DNA from: a virus
Length of the DNA stretch: 26,556 nt
Virus genome (UHGV): UHGV-0062447
Direction: 5' to 3' (one strand)
Within the stretch, counting starts at the first letter, position 1; each line of letters opens with the position of its first letter. The notes under the pieces are model-generated. The model saw only the letters and a program-made list of their open reading frames with translations, searched no databases and was not told the DNA's origin. Below, in pieces: positions 3,438-26,556 of this stretch. The position numbers were made by a program, and so were the translations under genes.

Positions 3438-3455
3438 TGTGTGGTAAATGACACA
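3438..3455. promoter_or_regulatory. TGT-N12-ACA dyad (P2 Ogr / 186 B late-activator-type site) upstream of V
   Basis: Sequence TGTGTGGTAAATGACACA read directly; P2 late promoters carry TGT-N12-ACA upstream of the -35 region. Spacing to the V start (about 55 bp to the ATG) is shorter than expected, so tentative. Confidence 0.3.
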
Positions 3456-3486
3456 AATACAATTCCAATCGAAGAAAGGTAAAAGA

Positions 3487-4017
3487 ATGAGCCATCCAAT
3501 TGATTATTACGCTATAGAAGAACACGCAAGAATAATTGAGCAATTATGCTGTTCATCTGAATTTTATTTACAGCGTATATATTCCACACAGAAAGTATAT
3601 GATGGTTCTATAGTAACTGAATTTGAAATGGAGGAGTTATCGTACAACGGATGGTTGGAATATACCATTAGCAACAATCTTATTAGCCTTTGTACAAAAC
3701 TACGAATTCTCCAAGACACTAATGAACATGAGTGGAACCCAGATTACTCACCTGAGAAAGAAGCATTTGAAGAACATGAAAATATACTTTTTGTTATAGA
3801 TGGTCATGTTAAAGGTTCTATACGCGAATGCTGCAATAAAATTATTCACGCATTAAGTTTTGAGTTAACAAAAAAGACCGGCAAAAATGGAATAAAATAT
3901 TGGGATGGTTCTATTATTGCTTCTGGGGTTCAAAACAAAAAAAACTGGAAAATTAAAATAGACCTTTTCCCTTTTTGCCAAAGCATAAAAAGTTATTTAA
4001 GTTTATTAAGTGCGTAA
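3487..4017 (+). CDS. Hypothetical protein (176 aa), low-GC cargo gene between V and S on the opposite strand
   Basis: ORF 3448..4017; preferred start ATG 3487 preceded by AAAGG (gaaaggtaaaagaATG); alternative ATG at 3448. Coding sequence is very AT-rich relative to flanking core genes. No motif recognised. Confidence 0.65.
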   Translation: MSHPIDYYAIEEHARIIEQLCCSSEFYLQRIYSTQKVYDGSIVTEFEMEELSYNGWLEYTISNNLISLCTKLRILQDTNEHEWNPDYSPEKEAFEEHENILFVIDGHVKGSIRECCNKIIHALSFELTKKTGKNGIKYWDGSIIASGVQNKKNWKIKIDLFPFCQSIKSYLSLLSA

Positions 4018-12804: not shown

Positions 12805-14478
12805 TTAAGATTTATGGCTAAAGAGTATACCTGTAACAGAACGTTGATAGGCATCAAGCTTCTCTTGCCTCTGCTTAAATTTAGATTTGATATCACTAAT
12901 ACTCGGAATACCTATTACTCCAAGGCCTGCACTTAACGTCGCTAAAGTAGTATTGCCAGTCAGCGCTCCAGCAATTGCTATAGCACCATTTGCGATACAT
13001 GGTAGGACATCTAGTCCGTAAATTCTCAATTTCTCTTTTTGGGCTTTTGCAAGAATCCTTTGATGTTCAATAAAAGCCCGGTCTACATTATCAATTACTT
13101 TTTGCGTTGTCCTCGAAAAGCTCTCTGCCGAAGAATTGATTAAAGAGTCAACACCATTTGATAAGATGGATCTTACATCCTCCATCAATTTGTTACGTCT
13201 CAACTCAATTATTTTATTGACCGGTACATTTCCTAACCATGAAAAACCATCTTGCATACCAGCAGATAACGCATGAACCATATGCAAATTTTTTAGTTCA
13301 ATATCATTGACATCAAAATTAAGAGATTCGTACTCAATAAGCCAAGTATAATAGAGCCAAGATGTGTCTGCATTTATATATGGAGTACTACCAAGTTCTT
13401 GTGCATTACATTTTGCTGAATAGGCTTGCGGCATTCTTCCAATGCAGGAAAGGAAAACCTCCATTCCAGCATGATCACCAACAACATTACGTGATATTCT
13501 TTTTTTATCAGATAGTAGTTTTTCTAATTGAGTTTTTGGATTTAGCCCCCATGCTGTATCAAAAATAAGTCTATCTGCTCTCTTAATATTTTTAAGAACA
13601 GCATCAATATCATTCATCGAATAACTAAAATCTTGAAATTCATCGTAGCTTTCGAACCGTCGATCATAGAGATATTGCGCATGAGTCAGAGCATAAGGCT
13701 CACAAAAACTCATCAAATTTTTTTTGCTCTCAGTTTCAAAATCTCTTCTATCCGGCAAAATTAATACTATTGCTGGCTCTATATCTTCAAGCGCTACTTC
13801 TTTATATGTCATACATGTTAGGACATGCTTTAGAAGTATCCTTGTAAACTCAGCCTTATCTGACTTTTCATAGAGACGACCGACTCTTAATATAGGACAT
13901 GGAAGTGAAATAGTATCAACATACAACCCTGCAATAGAGACAGCATTCTCATCAAATGCAGGAAATAAGTCACCAGAAAAATTAGCTTTAAACTGAGAAC
14001 CATCCTGCAAATGTATTACACCAATATCGGATGTTACCTGCCAAAACTCTATTACCTGATTATATAACTCAGGAAAAACATCTTCTATTTGCTTAACATA
14101 TTCTTCTTGTTGAGAAAAAAAACTTGATGCTTTATGTGGCGTTGCATTAGTTTTTTTCATCAGATAAAACAACTCGCCAAAATTACTAAAAAGAATATTA
14201 AAGTAAGAACTTTGCAAGTCCTGAATAGAGTATTTGTTTTTTATATCTTCTCTTTCTAAAAAGTGATTAACCGCTGCTCCCATAGCCTTTATTCTGCCAT
14301 CAACAGTAGAAGGGTCAACTTTACCATCCTGTCGCAGCCTTATTCTTTTAAAACTTTCAATAAAACCTTCTACAAGATGATGAGCTATTTTTAGTTTTCC
14401 CGCTTCCAGTTGTTGCTTAATGAGAAAAACACGCTCAGTTAAATCGTCTACATATTCCTCATCTTGATATTTTTCCAT
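12805..14478 (-). CDS. Hypothetical 557-aa protein with C-terminal hydrophobic/glycine-rich hairpin; low-GC cargo gene between Q and cos
   Basis: Single long ORF, ATG 14476-14478 with GGAG 6 nt upstream; very AT-rich; C-terminal segment ...LPCIANGAIAIAGALTGNTTLATLSAGLGVIGIPSI... is hydrophobic; no Walker motif or other domain recognised by eye. Confidence 0.8.
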   Translation of the reverse strand: MEKYQDEEYVDDLTERVFLIKQQLEAGKLKIAHHLVEGFIESFKRIRLRQDGKVDPSTVDGRIKAMGAAVNHFLEREDIKNKYSIQDLQSSYFNILFSNFGELFYLMKKTNATPHKASSFFSQQEEYVKQIEDVFPELYNQVIEFWQVTSDIGVIHLQDGSQFKANFSGDLFPAFDENAVSIAGLYVDTISLPCPILRVGRLYEKSDKAEFTRILLKHVLTCMTYKEVALEDIEPAIVLILPDRRDFETESKKNLMSFCEPYALTHAQYLYDRRFESYDEFQDFSYSMNDIDAVLKNIKRADRLIFDTAWGLNPKTQLEKLLSDKKRISRNVVGDHAGMEVFLSCIGRMPQAYSAKCNAQELGSTPYINADTSWLYYTWLIEYESLNFDVNDIELKNLHMVHALSAGMQDGFSWLGNVPVNKIIELRRNKLMEDVRSILSNGVDSLINSSAESFSRTTQKVIDNVDRAFIEHQRILAKAQKEKLRIYGLDVLPCIANGAIAIAGALTGNTTLATLSAGLGVIGIPSISDIKSKFKQRQEKLDAYQRSVTGILFSHKS

Positions 14479-14579
14479 AAACGCTCCATTAAAATATTTA
14501 ATAATGCATATAAGAATAGTTAATAATATTTACAGTAACTATATCACATTAGATCCAGATTGTTACACTGTTGCGCGCG

Positions 14580-14598
14580 CTCGTATCCCCGCCACGCC
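14580..14598 (-). other. Putative cos site (cohesive-end sequence)
   Basis: Minus-strand sequence GGCGTGGCGGGGATACGAG; the first 13 nt match the P2/186 cohesive-end sequence as I recall it (GGCG[A/T]GGCGGGGAAAGCA[C/T]), followed by a CGCGCGC tract as in the P2 left end. Location between Q and A is as expected. Confidence 0.5.
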
Positions 14599-14640
14599 TG
14601 CCCGCTTTATGTAGCGGTTTTCATGCGCCTGCATGACATA

Positions 14641-14667
14641 AGCAAAAGCCCGCCACTCCTGGCGGGC
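14641..14667 (-). terminator. Rho-independent terminator (GCCCGCC-ACTCCT-GGCGGGC stem-loop, T-run on minus strand)
   Basis: Read directly; lies about 95 bp 3-prime of the 203-aa minus-strand gene. Confidence 0.65.
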
Positions 14668-14758
14668 CTCAGCTAAAACGATCCTCAAACGATCATGCGG
14701 ATTCATGCGGCATAGACATGCACAATCTCCAAAGCGGGCATCGAGACTTTTTGGAAAC

Positions 14759-15370
14759 CTACGTAACCACAGTTAATGTGTGCATCCTGTCTCGAATTGC
14801 ATCACACGTCTCATCAAAAAGCTTGGTGATGGTTGTACAGTTCAACTCCGCCTCTTTCCAATAATTTTGCCCGTCAAATTCTGGATCGCTATGCTTAAAC
14901 GATATTGACTCTGAAAGGCATTCCTTCCGGAAACGGTCCAAGATTATATAAACCTCTGGTGAGATGAACGGTTTGTTAGATTCAACACTTGTAACAAAAG
15001 TGTTAAATGCATCAAAAAAAACTTTCAACCTTCTAAATTTTCTCTCTTCAAATGGTTCGTTGGGGTCAACATGATCCAGCGCAGGCCTCAGCTTAAGCAC
15101 GCTTTCTCTGGTTTCAAACATCGAATTCCAAATGAGACTATATGCTGATAACTCCTTATCAAAATACGCTTTCGTTACATAAACAGAATTGTCTAACTTA
15201 GCCTTTATTCTTTCATTAGTTGCACTCAGTTGTGATTGAAATTCAGCAATATCTTTGTTTAGCCGCGACTTATATCTTTCTAAATAAACTTTCCCGATCC
15301 AAACAAATATGCCAGATGCAACAAAAGACACCCCACCCAACGAAGCCAGAACTTTAAAGACTAAATCCAT
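14759..15370 (-). CDS. Hypothetical 203-aa membrane-anchored protein (N-terminal TM helix); low-GC cargo gene between cos and the SOS operon
   Basis: ATG 15368-15370 preceded by AGGTGGGGG; N-terminus MDLVFKVLASLGGVSFVASGIFVWIG is a predicted TM helix; AT-rich; nothing recognised in the remainder. Confidence 0.8.
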   Translation of the reverse strand: MDLVFKVLASLGGVSFVASGIFVWIGKVYLERYKSRLNKDIAEFQSQLSATNERIKAKLDNSVYVTKAYFDKELSAYSLIWNSMFETRESVLKLRPALDHVDPNEPFEERKFRRLKVFFDAFNTFVTSVESNKPFISPEVYIILDRFRKECLSESISFKHSDPEFDGQNYWKEAELNCTTITKLFDETCDAIRDRMHTLTVVT

Positions 15371-15399
15371 TGCGCCCCCACCTGCAAAAATAGTATTCC

Positions 15400-15427
15400 A
15401 TTATAAGCTAATACATTTTTAATCAAA
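15400..15427 (-). promoter_or_regulatory. Sigma70-like promoter for the 203-aa gene (-35 TTTGAT, 16-bp spacer, -10 TATAAT)
   Basis: Read on the minus strand: ...cctgTTTGATtaaaaatgtattagctTATAATgg...; about 25-30 nt upstream of the ATG. Confidence 0.5.
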
Positions 15428-15634
15428 CAGGGGATAATTCGCGTCAACCTCATCACTTCTCTGCTCTACCCTAGTGACTTCCATCAAAAACCCCAGGCCG
15501 TCATATAGCGAAACGGGGAATTCCAGCTCAAGCCAGAAGCAGTCTTCATAGATGCGGCCCAACCAAAAACCTCCGCCACACTCCTTTGGGCGTTGAAAGA
15601 AGACCCAGTCGCCAAGGGTTAAACGTTCCAGCAC
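15419..15634 (-). CDS. Hypothetical small protein (71 aa, GTG start); possible third cistron of the SOS operon
   Basis: ORF-track entry only; no ATG start and a weak RBS. Confidence 0.3.
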   Translation of the reverse strand: MLERLTLGDWVFFQRPKECGGGFWLGRIYEDCFWLELEFPVSLYDGLGFLMEVTRVEQRSDEVDANYPLFD

Positions 15635-15752
15635 CTAGCCCCGATAAATAATCTGGTGATTACTGTCTTTTTTACCCATGGCTAACGCCTCGCTACTCTC
15701 GTTGTTCAACCTTGCTGACGTCAGATTCAAGTTCTTACATCAGGAACGTTCC

Positions 15753-15986
15753 TTAGTGCAGCCAGCTGTCGTCTTCCCAAACCTGTTGCATAATTTCCAT
15801 CACCCGCTTTTTGTCTTCATCAAGCTTTAAGCCACTCAGCTCAACGCCGTTTGCCGCCCCTTTACGGATGCGGATAGCGGTCTTGGGATAGATGGGTTGC
15901 AGGTTGCGGTAAAGCTCGGACTCCAGAGCGTCCAGGGTAGACTGGCTAATCTTCTGCTCTTTATCGATCATTATTTCAATGCGCAT
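15753..15986 (-). CDS. DinI-family protein (77 aa), 186 Tum C-terminal-like
   Basis: From ATG 15984-15986: MRIEIMIDKEQKISQSTLDALESELYRNLQ...GAANGVELSG...EDKKRVMEIMQQVWEDDSWL parallels E. coli DinI (MRIEVTIAK...DALAGELSRRIQ...AAANNLSVIG...EDKQRISEILQETWE) as I recall it; SD GAGGTGA upstream. Confidence 0.8.
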   Translation of the reverse strand: MRIEIMIDKEQKISQSTLDALESELYRNLQPIYPKTAIRIRKGAANGVELSGLKLDEDKKRVMEIMQQVWEDDSWLH

Positions 15987-15996
15987 AAAAGTCACC

Positions 15997-16185
15997 TCAA
16001 CTGATGACATCCATTGAGCGGTTGTATTCGTGGGTTCTGATTTTTGCCATGAGTTCATCTGTTAGTTCAGAAACCCACTGCAAAGCCAGCCCCTTCTCTT
16101 CATCACTACACTCACTAGCCGCTACAAGCTTAAGAAAAAAATCAATGCGCTGGAGCTTCAAAGACTCCAAAAAATAGTCCTGCAT
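15997..16185 (-). CDS. Small protein (62 aa), first cistron of the LexA-controlled operon
   Basis: ATG 16183-16185 preceded by GGAGGAAAAATG; ends 10 nt before the dinI-like ATG. Confidence 0.6.
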   Translation of the reverse strand: MQDYFLESLKLQRIDFFLKLVAASECSDEEKGLALQWVSELTDELMAKIRTHEYNRSMDVIS

Positions 16186-16228
16186 TTTTCCTCCTATGAC
16201 ACCACAAGCAATACTGTATACATAACCA

Positions 16229-16244
16229 CTGTTTATATTTACAG
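16229..16244. promoter_or_regulatory. LexA box (SOS operator) CTGTTTATATTTACAG
   Basis: Perfect CTGT-N8-ACAG with AT-rich centre, read directly, inside the promoter region of the small-ORF/dinI-like operon. Equivalent to the LexA-repressed p95/tum promoter of phage 186, located between A and cos. Confidence 0.8.
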
Positions 16245-16338
16245 TATATAATAATCTTACTGATGTAAAACGTTTTTTTACGTTCATCAGCCTGATATGC
16301 CTGGTATTATTAAGAGCACGAATTGTTAATCAGCGTAA

Positions 16339-18753
16339 TTAATACATGTTCCGCCATTTATCATCCTCCTGCAGACGCTGGTTCCGATAGAAGATACGCA
16401 GGCCTGCTCCTGACGGAATACTGCCACCGCGAAGGAGCAACTCGACCTCTTTCTCGCTGCCATCAAATCCTCTGGACTTCAGTTCATAGACAAGCTGCTG
16501 TCGCTGATGGTCTGTAATTCGCTGTTTGTAGTCTTTACGCCGTTTCGGTTTCACCAGGCGTAACCTTGCTGCCAGTTCCCGGCGATCTTTTTTGCTCATA
16601 CTGTGCAGGTAATCGTGCAACTCCTTGTCATTCATACGGGTAATATCCGTTCTGGAGTCCCCATCAGCTGATTTGTTTTTCCCTTGTTGGTTCAAATTTT
16701 CAGCAAGGGGACAGTTATTGCCACGAGTCCAAGGGGCGCAAGCGCCCTGGTCGGCTGCCGCCTCCTGAACGTCAACGGCCTTACGAACCATTTTCCACTT
16801 CACCGCATGAGTGCAGATCTTGCCCTCTGCAATGGGTGACCAGATGCCATAAATACGAATACCGTGATCGCCATAGGCGGTTGGCTCTTCGTTGATTTCA
16901 TAAGCGGTTCTGATGAGGTGATATTTACGGGGAACCAGTACGCCGCCCTGCTTCATGATATAGGTGGCAAAACAACCAGCATCAGCAGCAGCCAGAATGG
17001 CATCAAGGCGCGGGTTATCCAGTACCGGCGCACCTGCTTTTTTGTCACCCTGTTGCCTTGCCGCCTGACCAGCCAGCAATCGCAGTTCACGGTAAGCCTG
17101 ACGCCCCGGAATGCCAAAGAAGCGGAATTGCTGAACACGATGCAGAGACGCCCAGGCATTAACGTATTCAGCGTTATCACGCAGGGATTTACCCGTTTCC
17201 TTGCTGATCTCCCCAGCCAGACCACGCCCGTCAATGTTCTTACTGATGTATTTCGCGATATAGCTTGTTGGCGTACCTTTGCGCGGGTTTATCAGCTCAG
17301 ACTTAAAGCGTGGTCCCGTGTTATTGCCCAGCTCCTCGCGGTCTTCACGGATGGCAAACTTACGCAGTAATGCAGTGATGGCGCGGCGGTCTTTTTTACG
17401 CATGAAACACATGAGATGCCAGTGCACAGTACCGTCATGATGCGGCTCAGCTACCCGCACGCCATACCAGCGCAACTCGGCTTTATGCATAGCCTTACGA
17501 AATGCAGCAAACATGCCGACCAGATAATCGCTACTTTGTCTTACCGTCGCGTTTGTCCAGGTCGGGTTTGGTCTGCCGTTATTGAGCGTGGAATGGAAAC
17601 GCGACGGACAGGTGATAGTGTAGAAAACGGCACAGTCACTGCGCATTTCCGCGATAAGCTCCAGACCTTTAACACAGGCCATCATCTCATTGCGGCGATG
17701 CGCCGGGTTGCTGCTGCTGGCGTTTACCACATCTTCCATATCCAGCGTGTCGCCGTCTTCGTTCACCAGTTCATGAGAACGAAAAAACTCCAGCGACTTA
17801 CGGCGCTGCTCACGTTTATGCATCACGGCTTCATAGCTGACATAGGGGGATGCTTTTTTGCTGACCAGGCAGACAGCACGCAACTGCTCTTCCCGCCATT
17901 CGCAACGCATCTTCCATAATTTCCGATACCACCAGTCGGCACACAACATACGCGCCAGCGAACCCGGGATGAGTTCATAGGGCACTGGTTTGCGGCGGTT
18001 TCTTTTCCGACGAAGTTTCTCAAACGCAGGCGGGATAACATCCAGACGCAGGGTTTCCGCTGCCACCTTTTCCCATGTCTTGCGGATTTCTTCTGGCTTA
18101 ACGTCATCGGTGGCATACAAGTCACCACAAGCGTCCTCAAGACACATGCTCATATGCGCTGCTACCAGGGTGGACAGGCGTTTCACCTGATCCTGGCTCA
18201 TTTCAGGCAGGATCAGCAGACCCTCCAGCCCTTGATGGCTTGCCATAAAACGGAAAGAAACAGATAGCTGACTGTCACGTACACAATCCAGTCGCTCCAG
18301 ACATGGCTTAATCGTCTCACGCAAATAGCGGGAATAAGCCTTTGGCCTGCCCAGGCTGCTGAAGTATTCAATACGTTGCATCAGCGGCTTGCTGATATGG
18401 GAAGGCTGGGCGTTTACGTCCGCCAGAATGACCATGTCCGGATTAAAACGCTGCTGCTCATGCGCCAGCTTTGCCCGGCTAATGAGCTTATCCTGCTCCA
18501 TTTCGCGCTGGACAGGATCACGGGATTCATTAAAGAAATAACGCTCCCAGACCTGCTCACTCAGTGCCTCGCGGCGCAGTTGTTCCTGCTCGTTATCGGC
18601 AGCGTACAGAGTGATCAGGTTTGAAAGTGCAGACTCCGGCGCAACTTCCGCCGGGTCCAGATAAGGGTTAATGGCCTTTTTCGAGCCGTTCCATGAAAAT
18701 GCTGCGGCGGCCTCGTTAAAGCCGCTGCAATTGTTCATATCGTCATGACTCAT
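16339..18753 (-). CDS. A: Replication initiation protein A (rolling-circle endonuclease), P2/186 gpA-like
   Basis: 804 aa from ATG 18751-18753 (overlaps dam stop as ATGA); large protein in the expected position, with translation recognised as P2/186 gene A family. Confidence 0.85.
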
Positions 18754-19607
18754 ACACACACTCCGTACACGGCAGAACTATCCACGCCACGCGAAGGATC
18801 AAATCCCAACCAGCAGCTCGGCCCGGAAACAGCAATGATTTCTGTTGCAGATTTACCCTCGCCAGCTGACACGCCGATGCTGCGTTTTGCCTTGATATAG
18901 TGGTGAGTAAAATTGCGATACAGCGAACGAATCAGGGATGTGTCATTGTTAGAAACAATGACCGGATGTCCTTCTGATGACCGATGTTCAAGAATGGATG
19001 CCAGGTGATACTGGTCATCTTCAGTGAAACCATCAGTGTGATAGCCGGAAAACGTACCGTCATACGGCGGATCGCAATACACCACATCCCCCACCTGCAG
19101 CATCGCCAGCGTTTCATCAAAGCTCGCGCAGATAAACGTTGCCCGCTGGGCTTTCTCTGCAAATGCGCGAATTTCTTTTTCAGGGAAATACGGATTTTTA
19201 TAATTACCGTAGGGAATGTTGAAATACCCGCTCTTGTTATAGCGACATAAACCACGGTAACCGTGACGATTGAGATACAGGAAATATATCGCCTTCATGA
19301 AATCAGTAATTTCAGTTGAGTAATTAAACTCCTGTCTTATGTTGTAATAAGCCAGCTCACTGTTTGCTTCCTCAAATAAAACTTTGGCACGAGATATAAA
19401 CGCTTCGCAATCAGCGGCAATCTTTTTATAGAGGTTGATTAAATCAGGATTAATATCCGCAACCAGATAGCTGGGGTAATCCGTCGCCATCATCACAGCA
19501 CAAGAACCCGCGAAAGGTTCAACCAGTCGCGGGCCAGCAGGAAGGTATTTTTTCAGTTCGGACATAATGGCGGTTTTATTACCCGCCCATTTCAGGATGG
19601 TGCTCAT
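18750..19607 (-). CDS. dam: DNA adenine methyltransferase (Dam-like, N6-adenine MTase)
   Basis: From ATG 19605-19607: [23 protein letters not shown]...FAGSCAV... and a DPPY catalytic motif ([14 protein letters not shown]). Confidence 0.85.
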
Positions 19608-19831
19608 ACAGCACCTCCGTTGTAATGTTTGCCTTTCAGCTCTGCGATTTCCTGGCAGGTAATGCAAAGCTGCACTCCAGGAATGGCACGGCGGCGTGCT
19701 GGCGGAATTGGCGCTTCACACTCAACGCAAAGCACGCGGGACACGCCCGGCGTTTTGGCGCGGGCAGCACGGATATGACGCTGGCGTTCTTCTTCAACGC
19801 GCTGCTGTACGAGATCCATTGCATCAGCCAT
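19604..19831 (-). CDS. TraR/DksA-family C4 zinc-finger protein
   Basis: 75 aa with CVEC...CITC motif; ATG overlaps the upstream stop; stop overlaps dam start. Confidence 0.75.
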   Translation of the reverse strand: MADAMDLVQQRVEEERQRHIRAARAKTPGVSRVLCVECEAPIPPARRRAIPGVQLCITCQEIAELKGKHYNGGAV

Positions 19832-21050: not shown

Positions 21051-21509
21051 ATGACTAAACAAAGCTCCGAATACTTCCAATTACACTACTGTTATTACCT
21101 TGAACTAATGACAGCAACGTTCCATGGTCGAGCTGATAAATTAATGACAGCAATCCAACTTATAAGCGGAACAGCTGTATTTGCTAATACAGGTCTGGAA
21201 TGGTTGTTCGCTTTTCCTGTTGTTGTAATCGCAACAATCCAACTTGTATGGCAACCAGCTATTATTGCGGAACGAGCAAGCGTACAAAGCCGACAATATG
21301 GTGAGTTGCTTTACGCCGAGGATGAATTGTCTCCACAGTTCATTGCACAAAAATTGAAAGCTTTGCATCACTCTGACTCCACAACATTCGGATCTTTGTT
21401 AAACCCTGCCTACAAAAGAGCTGCTATTGCCTGTGGTCGGGTTGACGATGTAAACCTCAGCTTCCAAGAAAAACTTTTCGCTTGGTTCGCAGGTTGTTTG
21501 CCACGTTAA
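21051..21509 (+). CDS. Hypothetical membrane protein (152 aa, two predicted TM helices), opposite strand to the early operon
   Basis: ATG 21051 with AGGAAT upstream; hydrophobic segments LMTAIQLISGTAVFANTGLEWLFAFPVVVIATIQLVW; lower GC than the surrounding backbone; followed by hairpin CCCCGG-N11-CCGGGG (21545-21567). Confidence 0.65.
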   Translation: MTKQSSEYFQLHYCYYLELMTATFHGRADKLMTAIQLISGTAVFANTGLEWLFAFPVVVIATIQLVWQPAIIAERASVQSRQYGELLYAEDELSPQFIAQKLKALHHSDSTTFGSLLNPAYKRAAIACGRVDDVNLSFQEKLFAWFAGCLPR

Positions 21510-21697: not shown

Positions 21698-22207
21698 TCA
21701 CAGCAAACCGAATGAAGCACCGAGGCCAGTCACGGTATCAACTGCACTCGCCATCGCAGGATTAGCCTGTAAACGGGCCTGCAATGAAACAGCAGCCAGC
21801 GCCATCAGTCGTGTTACAGAGTTAATGCTGCTGATAGCATCACGACGACCTGCACTGGTTTTTACATCGCCAGATACCGCACCTGCAGCAACACGTCCGA
21901 TCTCTGCGGTTGCACTCATGACGTAATGTGGCAGTTTCTCTTTTGCTACCTCATTAATCGGTACACATGGCAGACAGTGAATCTGAGCCAGAAAGCCATC
22001 TACCAGCGTCGAATCTTCAGTCAGATCGGTAAGCAGCCAAATTTCTGGTGCGGTTAATAAATGAGGTTGAGCAGGGTTCAACTTGTTTCGCAGAATCTGC
22101 ACATTCATTCCTGCACGTCCTGCCAGCTGCACCAGGTTGTGGCGCAGTGCGAATGCACGACAGGCTTCATCAAAATGTGGATGTTTGGAAACTTGGTAAT
22201 CAAACAT
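21698..22207 (-). CDS. cII: CII-like lysogeny-establishment regulator (186 CII family)
   Basis: From ATG 22205-22207: [24 protein letters not shown]...[15 protein letters not shown]...[26 protein letters not shown]... closely parallels 186 CII (169 aa) as recalled. Confidence 0.85.
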
Positions 22208-22271
22208 GGTTTTCAATTCCGAACTTATCGCAAAATCGAACTCAGCGTCTTATTGCGAAAATAGACGTCTA

Positions 22272-22475
22272 TTAAGCAGACAAAGCATCAACAGTCAGAG
22301 CAGCCAGGTTAATCATTACCTTTTCACGTTTTTTGTCTTTACGAAGACGATGACGAGGTAGTCGGCCATCAGCCAACATGTCGTTAATCGTATCAATAGA
22401 AAGGCCAGTCAGTTCGCTATAACGTTCGATTGTGACATGTGGTGTATTCAGAGTAATTGAAATGTTAGGTGTCAT
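22272..22475 (-). CDS. apl: Apl/Cox-like excisionase and lytic-promoter repressor
   Basis: 67-aa HTH protein, first gene of the lytic operon, divergent from cI; ATG 22473-22475. Confidence 0.7.
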
Positions 22476-22564
22476 AAGGCAACATTCCTTCTAGATATGG
22501 CTTGTGGCGAGCCGTTGTTTGTCGTGATTAGTAGTGAAGGCTCCAAAAGAAGACTTCTGGTTCA

Positions 22565-22593
22565 ACTTTAAGATCGCTTTTGGAATCTGTCAA
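22565..22593 (-). promoter_or_regulatory. Lytic promoter (pR-like): -35 TTGACA, 17-bp spacer, -10 TAAAGT on the minus strand
   Basis: Read on the minus strand: TTGACAgattccaaaagcgatctTAAAGT. Directed toward apl and located inside the cI leader, the face-to-face arrangement described for 186 pR/pL. Confidence 0.55.
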
Positions 22594-22620
22594 CGAATTT
22601 TGGATTTCTTTGGAGGATTT

Positions 22621-23190
22621 GTGGATTTCAATAGCGGCGGTAAGAAAGCCATAGAACGTTTGGTTGAAGCATACGGGTTCGGTACCCGTCAGGCTCTCTG
22701 TGATCATTTAGGTGTTTCTAAGAGCACCATGGCAACGCGTTATATGCGTGATATTTTTCCGGCAGATTGGGTAATCCAGTGCGCCCTTGAAACGGGTACC
22801 TCGCTTAATTGGCTAACAACAGGGCATGGTTCAAAGCAAGCATCAGCAAATACAAATACTATAGAAGTAGTAAAATATTTATTGTCTGATGGAGCATTGC
22901 AGGAAGACGGTTTTTATATTTTTGATAAGGGATTTCTACCCTCTACGTTTAAAAAACCTTTTGTCATCACAGATAACAATTCTGAATTTATTTGTGATAA
23001 AGAATTTGATGATATACGTGATGGTAAATGGGTAATAAGTATTGATGGCGAAATAACAATCCGCGACATCACTCGTTTACCCGGTGGAAGAATTTTCGTT
23101 GAAGGTGGAAACAGAGCCTTCGAGTGCAAGATAGAAGATGTTGAAATAATTGGAAAAATTATAAGCTTAACAGTTAAGTATGTTAGATAA
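22621..23190 (+). CDS. cI: CI immunity repressor (186 CI family)
   Basis: Preferred GTG start at 22621 preceded by GGAGG (ORF-track start 22534 is also GTG). N-terminal HTH region (...AIERLVEAYGFGTRQALCDHLGVSKSTMATRYMR...ALETGTSLNWLTTGHG) and C-terminal pattern (WVISIDGEITIRDITRLPGG...GGNRAFECKIEDVEIIG) parallel 186 CI; C-terminal half is AT-rich. Confidence 0.8.
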   Translation: MDFNSGGKKAIERLVEAYGFGTRQALCDHLGVSKSTMATRYMRDIFPADWVIQCALETGTSLNWLTTGHGSKQASANTNTIEVVKYLLSDGALQEDGFYIFDKGFLPSTFKKPFVITDNNSEFICDKEFDDIRDGKWVISIDGEITIRDITRLPGGRIFVEGGNRAFECKIEDVEIIGKIISLTVKYVR

Positions 23191-23205
23191 TACCTGGAGG
23201 AAACT

Positions 23206-23388
23206 ATGCTTGGTAAGTTTTTTTTTGTGGTTTTATCATGCTCTTTGTTATTAAACCCACTAACTACCTATGCTAAAAATTATCCTTGTTCTGGGAAAAA
23301 GGGAGGTGTCTCTCACTGTACCTCTGATGGAAAATTTGTTTGCAATGATGGAACCATCAGTAAATCCAAAAAAACATGCATCAAATAA
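23206..23388 (+). CDS. Small predicted secreted Cys-rich protein (60 aa: signal peptide plus ~37-aa mature peptide with 4 Cys)
   Basis: ATG 23206 with GGAGG 5 nt upstream; [60 protein letters not shown]; AT-rich; starts 15 bp after the cI stop. Confidence 0.65.
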
Positions 23389-23401
23389 TAAGGAAATATG
23401 A

Positions 23402-24733
23402 ATGAGCACAGATATAACTTTCGATATACGTGATGAATATAAAAGAAAAGCCATTGCAGAAAAAATAATAAGTTTGCTAGAGTCTAATATTCCTGTTTCA
23501 CCTATGGTCATAGATGGGGACTGGGGGACTGGAAAAACAGAGTTTTCAAAAAAGTTAGCATCCTTAATTGAAATAAACTCGACCAATCATAAAGTAGTTT
23601 ATATAGATGCTTTTACTGAAGATCACAACGATGCTCCCATACTTACAATAATGGCCGCAATTGCAGCTCTATATAATAGCGATGAAAAAAAGGAATTAAT
23701 ATCTAAGGCATTGCCAGCCCTCAGATTCGGACTTAAGACTGTACTCAAAGCTGGTGCTGGTTGGGTATTAAAACAAAATGCGGATGAAATTAATGAGGAA
23801 TTTGAAGAGGTTATCAAAGACGCTGCAAATTCAGCTATCGATGGAACCATCGAGGCTCTGTTAGAAGATCATATCGAGGCACAAAAGAACGTTCTTGCTC
23901 TAAAAGAAGTACTAACCAAATTAGCTGGAGAAAGTAAACTAACAATAATTATAGATGAGTTAGACAGATGTAAGCCTAGTTTTGCCATTTCTATTATTGA
24001 AAATATAAAACATGTTTTTGATATAAAAAACATTAACTTTTTATTAATTGCAAACACAACTCAACTAAAAGCATCCATAAATCATATCTATGGCTCTTCT
24101 GTAGACTCCAACCGTTATCTTGACAAATTTATAAAATTTACATACAGCCTTCCTGTTACCTTTAAGGAAGATAATTATAATGACACTTTAACTTCCAAAA
24201 ATCATTGGATGATGCTATGTGAGCAATCTGAAAGGCTGACCGCTGCAGTAGAAGCCAGCGAAGATATTTTCTTACAGTTCATTGAAAGTAGAAAATTATC
24301 ATTACGTGAGGTTGAAACACTTGCTAGATATGTTGAAATATACCAACTACTATCAGGCGACAAAATTAGCAACAAATATATTTATGGATATTGTTATTAC
24401 AGGACTCTAGCGATAATAATCTACACTTTTAACCGAGAGTTAGCTCTCAACTTTCTTGAAGATAAAGTTGATGCTCAATCAATCATGAAATTGTTTGGTT
24501 TGTCTAAATTTTCATATCAAACAAGTGAATATAATGTAGATAATTATGAATATGCTATATTTGGAATAGTTTACAAATACTTATCTGAAAACTCATCTCT
24601 TTTACCTACTGAGGAAAATATAAAAAGACAATGGGCAGAAATGAGTGAATACCATTTTTTAAAAGGTAGTGGCGGTATTGGTGAACCAACAAATATTGTG
24701 AAAGATGCTTTAAAAGTTTTTTTACTTCAGTGA
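23402..24733 (+). CDS. KAP-family P-loop NTPase (443 aa)
   Basis: Walker A in the KAP-typical form GDWGTGKT and Walker B IIIDELDRC (DxLDRC); AT-rich; ATG 23402 preceded by AGGAA. Confidence 0.75.
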   Translation: MSTDITFDIRDEYKRKAIAEKIISLLESNIPVSPMVIDGDWGTGKTEFSKKLASLIEINSTNHKVVYIDAFTEDHNDAPILTIMAAIAALYNSDEKKELISKALPALRFGLKTVLKAGAGWVLKQNADEINEEFEEVIKDAANSAIDGTIEALLEDHIEAQKNVLALKEVLTKLAGESKLTIIIDELDRCKPSFAISIIENIKHVFDIKNINFLLIANTTQLKASINHIYGSSVDSNRYLDKFIKFTYSLPVTFKEDNYNDTLTSKNHWMMLCEQSERLTAAVEASEDIFLQFIESRKLSLREVETLARYVEIYQLLSGDKISNKYIYGYCYYRTLAIIIYTFNRELALNFLEDKVDAQSIMKLFGLSKFSYQTSEYNVDNYEYAIFGIVYKYLSENSSLLPTEENIKRQWAEMSEYHFLKGSGGIGEPTNIVKDALKVFLLQ

Positions 24734-24759
24734 TATGTATGGCTATACAAATTCATACA

Positions 24760-24788
24760 TTGACACTGGTTATATATACAGTAAAAAT
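24760..24788 (+). promoter_or_regulatory. Putative sigma70 promoter upstream of int (-35 TTGACA) overlapped by a LexA-box-like dyad CTGGTTATATATACAG
   Basis: Read directly: TTGACA-CTGGTTATATATACAG-TAAAAAT; the dyad differs from CTGT-N8-ACAG at one position. Confidence 0.35.
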
Positions 24789-24812
24789 GCTCTCCACTGG
24801 AGGGCATTTTTT

Positions 24813-25865
24813 ATGGCTGTACGAAAACTCACCACAGGAAAATGGCTTTGCGAATGTTACCCCGCCGGACGTAGTGGGCGTCGTGTGCGTAAACAATTCG
24901 CCACCAAAGGCGAAGCACTGGCTTTTGAGCGTCACACGATGGAAGAAACCGAAGCAAAGCCCTGGCTGGGTGAATCAGTGGATCGTCGAACACTGAAAGA
25001 CGTGGTTGAGCTATGGTTCAAACTACATGGTAAATCTCTGACTGCTGGGCAGCATGTCTATGACAAATTGCTGCTGATGGTTGACGCTCTGGGCAATCCC
25101 CTTGCAACTGATCTAACCTCTAAAATGTTTGCCCACTATCGAGATAAACGCCTGACAGGTGAGATCTACTTCAGCGAGAAATGGAAGAAAGGAGCAAGCC
25201 CGGTCACCATTAACCTGGAGCAAAGCTATCTAAGTAGTGTTTTTAGCGAACTATCCCGCCTGGGCGAATGGTCGTATCCGAACCCACTGGAGAACATGCG
25301 AAAATTCACCATCGCAGAAAAAGAGATGGCATGGCTTACCCATGAGCAGATTGTTGAATTACTGGCTGATTGCAAACGTCAGGAGCCAATTCTGGCACTG
25401 GTAGTTAAGATATGCTTAAGCACAGGCGCACGCTGGCGAGAAGCCGTAAATCTTACCCGCTCACAGGTGACCAAATACCGAATTACCTTTGTAAGAACGA
25501 AGGGGAAGAAAAACAGAAGCATCCCTATCAGTAAAGAGCTTTACGAAGAGATCATGGCGCTTGATGGATTCAATTTCTTCACAGACTGCTATTTTCAATT
25601 TTTATCCGTGATGGAAAAAACGTCTATCGTGCTCCCTCGCGGTCAACTCACACACGTTCTGCGCCATACGTTTGCGGCGCACTTCATGATGTCGGGTGGA
25701 AACATTCTGGCCTTACAAAAAATTCTCGGACACCACGATATAAAAATGACTATGCGTTACGCACATCTGGCACCGGATCATCTGGAAACGGCGCTCCGTT
25801 TCAATCCTCTGGCAACGCTGCCAAGTGGCGACAAAGTGGCGGCAGCGGTTGGCATTACCCCGTAA
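24813..25865 (+). CDS. int: Tyrosine integrase (P2/186 Int family)
   Basis: From ATG 24813: MAVRKLTTGKWLCECYPAGRSGRRVRKQFATKGEALAFE... parallels the P2 Int N-terminus (MAIKKLDDGRYEVDIRPTGRNGKRIRRKFDKKSEAVAFE) and contains the catalytic-region motifs STGARW, HVLRHTFA and MRYAH. Confidence 0.9.
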   Translation: MAVRKLTTGKWLCECYPAGRSGRRVRKQFATKGEALAFERHTMEETEAKPWLGESVDRRTLKDVVELWFKLHGKSLTAGQHVYDKLLLMVDALGNPLATDLTSKMFAHYRDKRLTGEIYFSEKWKKGASPVTINLEQSYLSSVFSELSRLGEWSYPNPLENMRKFTIAEKEMAWLTHEQIVELLADCKRQEPILALVVKICLSTGARWREAVNLTRSQVTKYRITFVRTKGKKNRSIPISKELYEEIMALDGFNFFTDCYFQFLSVMEKTSIVLPRGQLTHVLRHTFAAHFMMSGGNILALQKILGHHDIKMTMRYAHLAPDHLETALRFNPLATLPSGDKVAAAVGITP

Positions 25866-25888
25866 TAACCACCACTGACCACCAACCC

Positions 25889-25920
25889 AACTTATTGTTT
25901 TTACTCTAACTTATTGTTTT
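25889..25920. repeat. Two copies of AACTTATTGTTTT (25889-25901, 25908-25920) in the int-proximal attachment region
   Basis: Read directly, between the int stop and the TetR gene; candidate integrase arm-type or core-adjacent sites. Followed by hairpin AACCC-N12-GGGTT plus a T-run (25925-25952). Confidence 0.4.
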
Positions 25921-25969
25921 CATTAACCCGTTTACATAAATGGGTTTTTTGTTGCCTGAAATTTATCTA

Positions 25970-26506
25970 CTACCCAGCAATCCTCTCAACCATCCTCAAA
26001 ATCTCCTCGCGTGATAGCGGCTTACGGTCGGTGACAAAATGCAGCGTCATCCCCTCAATAAACGCATCAAGCGCGCGGGCGGTTCCGGGTTCAAACCATT
26101 GTTCGAGCGTTTGTTGACTGCGCTGCATCCAGTTTTGCATTACCGTTTTTAAGAGCGGTTTTCGGCTAGCCAGCGCGTAGAGCTGGTACATCAGCTCCAT
26201 ATTATCCGGCGTTGCGACCTGTGAGCTGTAGATCATATCGGTGATAGCCTGGCATGCGCCTGGAGCATCACTAACATCGCTAAAAAATGCCTGATATTGC
26301 CGGGACATGATCTCAGTAAAACGGCTGAACGCCTCCAGCAACAACTCATCAATTCCTGAAAAATAGTAGGTCATCGATCCCAACGGCACCCCGGCAAGGG
26401 TAGCAATTTTGCGGTGTGTAACAGCATGTATTCCGTAAAGTTTCACCGCCTCCAGCGTGGCCTGGATAATTTTTTCTCGCCGTTGCGGATCGTTAGCGCG
26501 ACGCAT
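25970..26506 (-). CDS. TetR/AcrR-family transcriptional regulator, probably host chromosome flanking the prophage
   Basis: From ATG 26504-26506: [49 protein letters not shown] has a TetR-type N-terminal HTH; backbone GC; lies outside the phage gene order. It may correspond to an enterobacterial rcdA/ybjK-type gene, but I cannot confirm that. Confidence 0.7.
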
Positions 26507-26556
26507 GTCATTTCCTCTCTCTGCAATTGTGTACAAATGTACACAGTCTTGCTAAT

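What the first reader, a model, noticed from the sequence alone, without database searches (positions are those of the whole stretch)
23402..24733. KAP-family P-loop NTPase inserted in the lysogenic cI-int operon
In 186-type phages cI and int are close together on the pL transcript. Here about 1.6 kb of AT-rich DNA separates them and encodes a 443-aa protein with the KAP-type Walker A (GDWGTGKT) and Walker B (IIIDELDRC) signatures. Co-transcription with cI would give expression in every lysogen, the expected behaviour of a lysogenic-conversion or superinfection-defence gene. KAP NTPases are poorly characterised and have no phage core role that I know of.
Basis: partly seen in the sequence, partly recalled or inferred. 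Interest (0 to 1): 0.8.

Follow-up and report, generated by a model that had tools for sequence, protein, structure and literature searches.

The report
Prophage-borne KAP NTPase, candidate anti-phage gene
A 186-like E. coli prophage carries, directly behind its repressor gene, a 443-residue KAP-family ATPase from a family already listed as an untested anti-phage defence candidate (PADLOC PDC-S20), in a slot where sister prophages carry proven defence genes, so it is a sound but fairly ordinary defence candidate.

Summary
ORF 23402-24733 (+) encodes a 443-aa KAP P-loop NTPase (Pfam PF07693, E=1.4e-53) with intact Walker A (GDWGTGKT) and Walker B (IIIDELDRC). It lies in 1,622 AT-rich bases between cI and int, which abut in phage 186.

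The insert is two separable cargo genes: a 60-aa secreted YdcA-like peptide and a 1.35-kb KAP cassette (23375-24724). About 584 other complete E. coli genomes carry the peptide without KAP.

The protein matches PADLOC candidate family PDC-S20 over its full length (E=2.6e-171); that family is computational and untested. In related prophages with the same integrase, the slot holds PD-Lambda-1, a GmrSD+HEPN pair (PD-T4-2-like), PDC-M11 or other PDC-S20 variants. Homologues also sit in the lambdoid Q-holin slot and beside type I R-M.

Most likely it is a lysogen-expressed, phage-sensing NTPase switch. Expression, phenotype and effector step remain inferred. Verdict: new member of a known kind, moderate-low interest.

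The parts
22621..23190 (+). cI immunity repressor (189 aa, GTG start with GGAGG Shine-Dalgarno), first gene of the lysogenic transcript
   Evidence: Pfam Phage_CI_repr 3.3e-31 and Phage_CI_C 1.6e-28. RefSeq start mapped from L001. Translation checked.
23206..23388 (+). YdcA-like secreted peptide (60 aa; N-terminal signal sequence, four Cys). An independent cargo gene that is the commonest occupant of this slot.
   Evidence: GGAGG lies 7 nt upstream of the ATG. NCBIfam PRK10040.1-2 at 8e-32, above its cut-off, and phrog_6000 at 2e-32. Kyte-Doolittle 19-residue maximum of 1.74 at the N-terminus. Present without KAP in about 584 complete E. coli genomes and in phage HP2 directly after cI.
23402..24733 (+). 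KAP-family P-loop NTPase, 443 aa, PADLOC PDC-S20 family (the finding)
23516..23539 (+). Walker A motif GDWGTGKT (residues 39-46)
   Evidence: G39, W41, G42, G44 and K45 are invariant in 39 homologues.
23942..23971 (+). Walker B block TIIIDELDRC (residues 181-190)
   Evidence: D185, E186, L187, D188, R189 and C190 are invariant.
24350..24730 (+). Hypervariable all-helical C-terminal domain (residues 317-443), the putative specificity or sensor module
   Evidence: Mean pairwise identity is 22% here against 50-58% for the rest of the protein. It is helical with high pLDDT in the model.
23375..24724 (+). The KAP cassette proper: the segment that replaces 121 nt of spacer in otherwise 90-96% identical prophages that carry only the YdcA-like gene
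   Evidence: blastn breakpoints against L033-L035. No transposon-type flanking repeats.
24760..24788 (+). Promoter-like site TTGACA-17-AAAAAT in the int leader, conserved in relatives whatever their cargo
   Evidence: 10 of 12 consensus match. The block CATTGA..ACTG..ATACAGT.AAA is conserved across 6-11 loci. Function not shown.
24783..24811 (+). Terminator-like hairpin (13 bp, 3-nt loop, then U6) whose 3' arm holds the int Shine-Dalgarno GGAGGG. It ends 1 nt before the int ATG.
   Evidence: MFE -16.2 kcal/mol, z -4.3. Inverted repeat I7. Four sequence-different versions in relatives fold in the same place.
24813..25865 (+). Tyrosine integrase (350 aa). The prophage end and attachment site follow, next to host rcdA (25970-26536, minus strand).
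   Evidence: Pfam Int_N 3.7e-32 and Phage_integrase 1.5e-21. RefSeq context. This integrase type is present in 1,120 of 5,426 complete E. coli genomes.
22272..22475 (-). Apl/Cox-like gene (67 aa), divergent from cI. The pR/pL switch region lies between it and cI (22476-22620).
   Evidence: Its position matches 186 apl and K139 cox. CII (Phage_CP76, 1.9e-41) lies downstream at 21698-22216.

Best explanation
The gene is prophage cargo that most likely protects the lysogen against other phages.

Inferred from gene order: it is made in every lysogen as the last gene of the repressor (pL) transcript, cI - YdcA-like peptide - KAP. That transcript probably stops at, or is translationally silenced by, the hairpin in front of int.

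Shown: the product is a soluble cytoplasmic P-loop NTPase of the KAP family. It has a conserved catalytic core, a conserved amphipathic helical insert between Walker A and Walker B, and a fast-evolving helical C-terminal domain.

Inferred mechanism: the protein idles until its variable C-terminal domain meets a phage-made trigger. Nucleotide-dependent assembly into an RdrA-like ring, or a conformational switch, then shuts down the infected cell or the infecting phage. There is no fused or adjacent effector. The effector step is therefore either intrinsic to the NTPase and its helical insert (energy or membrane collapse, as reported for the KAP-type proteins PifA and Tmn) or recruits a host factor. 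The neighbouring YdcA-like peptide is a separate envelope-acting cargo gene, not a partner.
For: Identity:
- Pfam KAP_NTPase E=1.4e-53.
- PADLOC PDC-S20 model PDLC04956 E=2.6e-171 over residues 1-441 of 443, with weaker hits to PifA (7e-16) and QatA (1.5e-11).
- PDC families were derived from genes embedded in BREX, DISARM and type I R-M loci (10.1101/2024.01.29.577857).

Same slot in prophages sharing this integrase and the rcdA site:
- PD-Lambda-1 at 3e-120.
- GmrSD plus HEPN, matching NsnA/PD-T4-2_A and PD-T4-2_B.
- PDC-M11A and B.
- A second PDC-S20 subfamily, a 505-aa KAP with 28% identity to ours.
- KAP alleles at 71% and 56% identity, and a Yersinia allele at 51%.

Precedent: K139 carries glo (periplasmic, phage exclusion) in the PL operon between cI and int. 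This slot is described as a defence hotspot in K139-like phages (PMC9122126). The int-primase interval holds 8% of P2 defence systems (PMC13586616).

Other contexts of homologues:
- The lambdoid Q-holin cargo slot, on the opposite strand, in Cronobacter, Citrobacter and Klebsiella.
- Next to type I R-M in Vibrio.
- Next to DUF4238 in Photobacterium.

Protein features:
- All Walker residues are invariant.
- dN/dS is 0.06 over the core against allele B.
- The C-terminus has 22% mean pairwise identity against 50-58% elsewhere.
- There is no transmembrane segment; the Kyte-Doolittle 19-residue maximum is 0.93.

Operon packing: 15-nt and 13-nt gaps, each gene with its own Shine-Dalgarno, and no terminator predicted before 24783.

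Other KAP-domain proteins with shown defence activity: EF_KAP, which depends on Walker B (PMC12632615); Tmn (PMC13001434); Reve, in P4 hotspots (PMC13586616); and PifA (PMC8594841).
Against: - No member of PDC-S20 has been tested in any paper I could find. 'PDC-S20' returns no paper at all, and the PDC set is explicitly described as untested.
- Guilt by position is not proof. The commonest occupant of the slot (the YdcA-like peptide) and one 314-aa occupant (L048) have no defence annotation.
- The protein has no recognisable effector domain and no transmembrane helices, unlike the validated KAP defences EF_KAP and Tmn. The killing or blocking step is therefore pure inference.
- The structural matches cover only the generic NTPase core: about 240 aligned residues at 14% identity, TM-score about 0.4.
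- Transcription from pL and expression in lysogens were not measured.
Confidence: 0.6

Rival explanations
1. Two-component system: the secreted YdcA-like peptide and the cytoplasmic KAP NTPase work together. The peptide would sense or block at the envelope and the NTPase would execute. This is the 'peptide/NTPase pair' the first reader proposed to test.
For: The two genes are adjacent, co-oriented and 13 nt apart. Allele B (71% KAP) also has a YdcA-like gene upstream, at 68% identity. Many KAP NTPases have membrane-spanning inserts with periplasmic loops (10.1101/2022.08.21.504612), so a split version is conceivable.
Against: - The genes occur apart far more often than together. The YdcA-like gene is found without KAP in about 584 complete E. 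coli genomes and in Haemophilus phage HP2.
- KAP occurs without the YdcA-like gene in allele C, with a 31-nt gap after cI; in Yersinia, where a different 160-aa gene sits upstream; and in all lambdoid and non-prophage contexts.
- The cassette boundary falls between the two genes.
Confidence: 0.07
2. The NTPase serves the prophage's own life cycle rather than defence. It could tune maintenance, induction, integration or excision, or interfere with P4-type satellites that parasitise P2/186-like helpers.
For: It sits inside the lysis-lysogeny control module, between cI and int. RexAB and PifA have been argued to have primary roles other than immunity (PMC8594841). P2-like phages are the helpers of P4 satellites (PMC9122126).
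Against: - The gene is dispensable. Most prophages with the same integrase lack it (34 of 1,120), and 186 has nothing there.
- Homologues sit in unrelated lambdoid prophages and in chromosomal islands next to R-M. That does not fit a function specific to 186-type regulation.
- An anti-satellite role would itself be a form of defence.
Confidence: 0.12
3. Lysogenic conversion unrelated to phages: a host-fitness or virulence factor carried as cargo.
For: AT-rich cargo expressed from a prophage repressor transcript is also the pattern seen for fitness genes such as lambda bor and lom (my own knowledge). Several carrier strains are gut or extra-intestinal isolates.
Against: It is a cytoplasmic NTPase with no secretion signal. 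Its family associates with R-M/BREX-type loci, which is the basis of the PDC set, and with defence genes. The alternative occupants of the same slot are overwhelmingly defence systems.
Confidence: 0.1
4. It is a core phage ATPase for packaging, replication or clamp loading that happens to be encoded here.
Against: The phage has its own large terminase, portal, capsid, scaffold and GpA replication protein. The gene is absent from 186 and from most relatives. The top structural hits are the defence ATPases RdrA and BrxC, not replication proteins. The Pfam assignment is KAP, not terminase or RFC.
Confidence: 0.01

Closest known systems
PADLOC phage-defence candidate PDC-S20 (single-gene KAP NTPase family; Payne et al., guilt-by-embedding set)
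   Same: Full-length profile match: PDLC04956, E=2.6e-171, residues 1-441 against profile positions 1-447 of 450. Same size, same single-domain architecture, stand-alone gene.
   Different: Nothing structural differs. The family itself is an untested prediction. Here it sits in a prophage lysogenic operon rather than embedded in BREX, DISARM or R-M.
RdrA, the KAP-type ATPase of the RADAR defence system
   Different: RdrA is about 800-900 aa and works with the adenosine deaminase RdrB. No RdrB-like gene is nearby; the neighbours are cI, the YdcA-like gene and int. Only about 240 residues align, at 14% identity.
PifA of the F plasmid (T7 exclusion)
   Same: KAP NTPase, single gene, carried by a mobile element, thought to sense phage proteins and abort infection (PMC8594841). 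There is a partial profile match at 7e-16 over residues 11-252.
   Different: The PifA profile is 720 positions long and only its NTPase part matches. The C-terminal halves are unrelated. It is not a PifA orthologue.
Tmn and EF_KAP (membrane-anchored KAP/YobI-type defence NTPases)
   Same: P-loop NTPase whose Walker motifs are needed for defence, and single-gene systems (PMC12632615; PMC13001434).
   Different: Those proteins have transmembrane helices, and EF_KAP also has a 322-aa effector region. This protein has neither.
K139 glo/orf2 and the cI-int defence hotspot of K139-like and P2-like phages
   Same: Same genomic slot and the same logic: accessory genes co-transcribed with cI upstream of int, one of them (Glo) with a shown exclusion function (PMC9122126; PMC13586616).
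   Different: The proteins are different; Glo is a 137-aa periplasmic protein. The E. coli rcdA-integrating 186-like lineage was not singled out for this slot in those papers, as far as the held text shows.
QatA of QatABCD
   Same: KAP-type NTPase. Weak profile matches: PADLOC 1.5e-11, and NCBIfam QatA at 41 bits.
   Different: The NCBIfam cut-off is 600 bits, so the match is far below threshold. No qatB, qatC or qatD genes are nearby.

Membership tests
KAP family P-loop NTPase (Pfam PF07693) | Profile match above the curated threshold across the whole domain | tested here: met
   E=1.4e-53, 182.5 bits against a cut-off of 20; residues 15-316 align to profile positions 1-291 of 293.
KAP family P-loop NTPase (Pfam PF07693) | Intact Walker A (GxxGxGKT/S) and Walker B (hhhhDE) with the family's DELDRC extension | tested here: met
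   GDWGTGKT and IIIDELDRC are present and invariant in 39 homologues.
KAP family P-loop NTPase (Pfam PF07693) | Two or four transmembrane helices inserted into the NTPase domain. This is typical of many but not all members, as described for Tmn and by Aravind et al., cited. | tested here: not met
   The highest 19-residue Kyte-Doolittle mean is 0.93, so no transmembrane helix is predicted. The insert (residues about 79-178) is a long amphipathic helical hairpin of low model confidence. This places the protein in the soluble subset, like RdrA and PifA. It does not exclude family membership.
PADLOC PDC-S20 | Full-length match to a PDC-S20 profile; a single gene with no required partner | tested here: met
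   PDLC04956 at 2.6e-171 and 569 bits, residues 1-441 against profile 1-447 of 450. Homologues stand alone in many contexts.
PADLOC PDC-S20 | Demonstrated anti-phage activity | not testable with these tools
   The PDC set is described as 145 untested candidates. No paper in the library mentions PDC-S20.
RADAR (RdrA/RdrB) | RdrA ATPase encoded next to an RdrB adenosine deaminase | tested here: not met
   Fold similarity is confined to the NTPase core. The neighbours are cI, the YdcA-like gene and int. There is no PADLOC RdrA hit.
PifA | Full-length similarity to F-plasmid PifA (profile of about 720 positions) | tested here: not met
   Only residues 11-252 match profile positions 17-255 of 720, at E=7e-16.
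QatABCD | QatA scoring above the NCBIfam cut-off, with qatB/C/D neighbours | tested here: not met
   41.3 bits against a cut-off of 600. No such neighbours are present.
Prophage defence hotspot (cI-int slot of P2/186/K139-like phages) | Conserved flanks, with different co-oriented cargo in related elements, enriched for defence systems | tested here: met
   The flanks are conserved (81-93% on the cI side, 92-97% on the int side), with at least seven cargo types between them. Five of these match defence or defence-candidate profiles.
Lysogenic (pL) operon member | Transcribed with cI in the lysogen | not testable with these tools
   Gene order, 13-15-nt gaps and the absence of a predicted terminator support it. 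The 186 and K139 records annotate pL/PL operons that run through this position. No transcript data are available here.

The most novel reading that the evidence does not exclude
This compact architecture of about 445 aa has no transmembrane helix, no effector domain and no obligate partner. It is found in more than 3,500 clusters at 50% identity. It could be a self-contained immune protein whose NTPase ring is itself the effector. For example, a phage trigger bound by the hypervariable C-terminal domain could unleash runaway NTP hydrolysis. Alternatively, the conserved basic amphipathic insert (LPALRFGLKTVLKAGAGWVLKQ) could be released onto the membrane or onto nucleic acid. That would be a defence mechanism not yet described for KAP NTPases, and the smallest sensor-plus-effector unit of the STAND/KAP type.
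Probability: 0.15. Interest if true: 0.7.

Novelty: new member of a known kind. Interest (0 to 1): 0.35.

Why it matters
If the protein does defend, it would be an experimental entry point into PDC-S20, a large and widespread family of minimal KAP NTPases that nobody has tested. It comes with a natural allelic series in one genomic slot: alleles at 100%, 71%, 56% and 51% identity that differ mainly in the C-terminal domain. That series is well suited to mapping what determines phage specificity.

The work also documents that the cI-int junction of the very common rcdA-integrating 186-like prophages is a cargo hotspot expressed with the repressor. This integrase type is in about 21% of complete E. 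coli genomes.

None of this overturns current views. PADLOC would flag the gene automatically, and prophage hotspots of this kind are well described.

Tried and rejected
- Sequence search of the PDB with a 39-sequence profile gave only generic Clp P-loop matches (E>0.2). No solved close relative exists.
- The Foldseek afdb50 library was not available. Foldseek against BFVD gave only one KAP-annotated giant-virus protein and generic clamp loaders.
- Rfam had no match in 22000-26556.
- RNAalifold on the int-leader hairpin failed, because MAFFT put the four hairpin classes out of register. I folded the classes one by one instead.
- A search for transposon-like repeats around the cassette found only chance-level short repeats.
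- The promoter scan found no more sites than shuffled sequence would give (10 against 11.3 expected), so no internal promoter for KAP can be claimed.
- I could not obtain the sequence of the validated KAP system 'Reve' because no supplements are held. Whether it belongs to the same family is unknown.
- The papers on DefensePredictor and on the P2/P4 hotspots do not mention a KAP protein of this kind. 'kap' in Rousset 2022 matched only the author name Kapfhammer.
- dS between alleles is saturated, so dN/dS for the C-terminal domain could not be estimated reliably.
Full report
**1. What is in the sequence**

The Walker A octapeptide GDWGTGKT is encoded at 23516-23539, and the Walker B block (T)IIIDELDRC at 23942-23971. 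Pfam assigns residues 15-316 to KAP_NTPase (PF07693) at E=1.4e-53, covering 291 of the 293 profile positions.

The gene order on the + strand is:
- cI, 22621-23190, with both Phage_CI domains;
- a 60-codon ORF, 23206-23388;
- the KAP gene;
- a tyrosine integrase, 24813-25865.

Host rcdA follows on the other strand. The gaps are 15 nt between cI and the small ORF and 13 nt between the small ORF and KAP. Each downstream gene has its own Shine-Dalgarno sequence. GC content is 32.7% for KAP and 33.9% for the small ORF, against 48.6% for int and 49.2% for the whole window.

The rest of the window is a P2/186-type phage. It has its own large terminase, portal, capsid, scaffold, baseplate gpV, tail gpS and GpA replication protein. 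It also has Apl/Cox-like, CII and Fil genes.

**2. Is it an insertion?**

Yes, by two comparisons.

In phage 186 itself, cI and int overlap by one base. Both are annotated as part of the pL/pE lysogenic operon.

More tellingly, about 584 other complete E. coli genomes carry a prophage at the same rcdA site with only the small ORF between cI and int. These include B-lineage laboratory strains. Against such a prophage (L033), the window is 90% identical through cI and the small ORF up to position 23374, and 96% identical again from 24725 onward. In between, 1,350 nt in the window (23375-24724) replace 121 nt in L033. That defines the KAP cassette. It has no transposon-type terminal repeats.

The complete cI-peptide-KAP-int segment occurs at 99.8-100% identity in 34 of 5,426 complete E. 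coli genomes. The integrase type occurs in 1,120 of them.

**3. The small ORF is not a partner of the NTPase**

It encodes a signal-peptide-bearing, four-cysteine peptide of the YdcA family (NCBIfam PRK10040.1-2 above its cut-off; phrog_6000).

- It occurs without KAP in hundreds of E. coli prophages.
- It occurs as an unannotated ORF overlapping the stop of cI in Haemophilus phage HP2.
- KAP homologues occur without it in allele C, in Yersinia behind a different 160-aa gene, and in every lambdoid or chromosomal context examined.

The two are therefore independent cargo genes that happen to be stacked.

**4. What family is the NTPase?**

PADLOC's profile for the phage-defence candidate PDC-S20 matches the protein end to end (E=2.6e-171). 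PifA and QatA match only the NTPase core, at 1e-11 to 1e-16. The NCBIfam QatA score of 41 bits is far below its 600-bit cut-off.

PDC families are computational candidates. They were derived from genes embedded inside BREX, DISARM and type I R-M loci and are explicitly untested. I found no paper that mentions PDC-S20.

An exhaustive profile search finds more than 3,500 clusters (at 50% identity) at E<=1e-30. The best 150 are almost all 430-470 aa, so the compact stand-alone architecture is the norm for this family.

In an alignment of 39 homologues:
- the N-terminal motif, both Walker motifs, the DAF..DH block, the amphipathic segment LPALRFGLKT.LKAG.GW.LKQ and LSLREVET are conserved;
- the last 127 residues average only 22% pairwise identity, against 50-58% for the rest;
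- the core is under strong purifying selection, with dN/dS 0.06 against allele B.

No 19-residue window exceeds a Kyte-Doolittle mean of 0.93, so the protein has no transmembrane helix.

**5. Context as evidence of function**

Prophages sharing this integrase (92-99% nucleotide identity at int) and this integration site carry a variety of genes in the same slot, all co-oriented with cI:

| Cargo between cI and int |
|---|
| PD-Lambda-1 (DUF4041 + T5orf172; PADLOC 3e-120); also in phages vB_EcoM-813R9 and KP12 |
| GmrSD-type nuclease plus a HEPN protein, matching NsnA/PD-T4-2_A and PD-T4-2_B |
| PDC-M11A and B, plus a DUF3644-like gene |
| A cI-like gene plus a 505-aa KAP of another PDC-S20 subfamily, 28% identical to ours |
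| KAP alleles at 71% and 56% identity |
| A 314-aa protein of unknown function |
| The YdcA-like peptide alone |

Vibrio phage K139 carries orf2 and glo in the same place in its PL operon; glo encodes a periplasmic protein involved in phage exclusion. Rousset et al. describe the cI-int interval of K139-like phages as a defence hotspot (PMC9122126). A 2026 survey places 8% of P2-encoded defence systems between integrase and primase (PMC13586616).

Outside P2-like phages, homologues at 42-46% identity are found:
- in the lambdoid Q-holin cargo slot, on the strand opposite the late genes, in Cronobacter, Citrobacter and Klebsiella;
- next to a type I R-M system in Vibrio;
- next to a DUF4238 gene in Photobacterium.

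This is the distribution expected of a mobile, self-sufficient defence gene.

**6. How it most likely works**

Shown:
- an intact, conserved KAP NTPase;
- a soluble protein;
- no fused or adjacent effector;
- a hypervariable C-terminal helical domain;
- tight packing behind cI.

Inferred:
- Transcription from pL in lysogens.
- Recognition of a phage trigger by the variable domain.
- Nucleotide-dependent assembly or switching. The RdrA resemblance suggests rings.
- An outcome that stops the infection. By analogy with other KAP-type defences, this could be collapse of membrane or energy state. PifA is thought to sense T7 proteins and kill by membrane depolarisation (PMC8594841). Tmn raises ATP turnover and exports Mg2+ (PMC13001434). 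EF_KAP needs its Walker B motif (PMC12632615). Those proteins have membrane anchors or effector regions that this one lacks, so the effector step is the weakest link.

I put 0.6 on 'anti-phage defence gene' and much less on any particular effector mechanism.

**7. Rivals**

- A joint peptide-NTPase system is contradicted by the independent distributions (section 3).
- A role in the prophage's own regulation, or against P4 satellites, cannot be excluded. It fits poorly with the occurrence of the family in lambdoid prophages and chromosomal islands.
- A phage-unrelated fitness function is unlikely for a cytoplasmic NTPase whose family tracks defence loci.
- A core packaging or replication role is excluded by the presence of those genes elsewhere and by the gene's dispensability.

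**8. A side observation that bears on the 'operon'**

Between the KAP stop codon and the int start codon lies a conserved leader, with homology to all relatives from 24725-24752 onward. It contains two elements.

- A promoter-like TTGACA-17-AAAAAT at 24760-24788.
- A 13-bp hairpin at 24783-24811, followed by six U residues. Its 3' arm contains the int Shine-Dalgarno GGAGGG.

Relatives carry four sequence-different versions of this hairpin in the same place, and all of them fold stably. In 186, by contrast, cI and int overlap.

In this lineage, then, the repressor transcript may end after the cargo, and int may be controlled separately. That would make the slot a convenient place to express cargo in lysogens without expressing integrase. 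This is inference from sequence only.

**9. Novelty and score**

- RefSeq already labels the protein a KAP family NTPase.
- The family is already a catalogued, though untested, defence candidate.
- The type of hotspot is already described.

What is new is modest. It consists of a precise delimitation of the cassette, evidence that the peptide and the NTPase are separable, a first sampled census showing that the cI-int junction of the common rcdA-integrating E. coli prophages is a defence-rich cargo slot, and a natural allelic series suited to experiments.

I rate it 'new member of a known kind', with interest 0.35.

Noticed in passing
window 23206-23388 (+); L031 (phage HP2) 2486-2668 (-); L033-L035 and L042: The YdcA-like 60-aa secreted four-Cys peptide is the commonest cargo directly behind cI. 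About 584 further complete E. coli genomes carry it at 90-99% nucleotide identity without KAP. An unannotated homologue overlaps the cI stop codon in Haemophilus phage HP2/S2, and homologues occur in Moraxella and Acinetobacter temperate phages. Its position matches that of K139 Glo, a periplasmic phage-exclusion protein. Its function is unknown.
   Followed up: partly
window 24734-24812: Conserved int leader: a promoter-like TTGACA-17-AAAAAT, then a 13-bp hairpin plus U6 that buries the int Shine-Dalgarno and ends 1 nt before the int ATG (z -6.4 for the 97-nt leader). Four sequence-different hairpins in relatives fold at the same place. This suggests int is insulated from the cI-cargo transcript, unlike in phage 186, where cI and int overlap.
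   Followed up: partly
window ~22800-23190 (C-terminal half of cI); L044, L045, L047, L048: In several relatives, nucleotide homology stops inside cI just after the HTH domain. The cI C-terminal domain therefore swaps together with the cargo. Some relatives have a cI of about 300 aa or a second cI-like ORF ahead of their cargo.
   Followed up: no
window 12805-16300 (- strand): AT-rich island (GC 33-44%) between the portal gene and gpA, which is the classical P2 old/tin hotspot. It holds a 557-aa ORF (12805-14478) with only a weak PADLOC DitB hit (5.9e-10), a 203-aa ORF (14759-15370, phrog_26391, function unknown) and a DinI-like gene (15753-16058).
   Followed up: partly
window 3448-4017 (+): A 189-aa ORF in an AT-rich patch (GC 32%), on the strand opposite the flanking baseplate gpV and tail gpS genes. 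It matches phrog_18838 (function unknown) and has no Pfam or PADLOC hit. It looks like another cargo gene inside the tail module.
   Followed up: partly
window 21051-21509 (+): A 152-aa ORF (phrog_6315, function unknown) with a hydrophobic central segment, on the strand opposite the early lytic genes, between two Fil-like ORFs. Several otherwise similar prophages lack it (L012-L016).
   Followed up: no
window 18750-19667 (-): A Dam-like orphan DNA adenine methyltransferase (PADLOC oMTase, 1e-109) in the early operon, conserved among the relatives examined.
   Followed up: no
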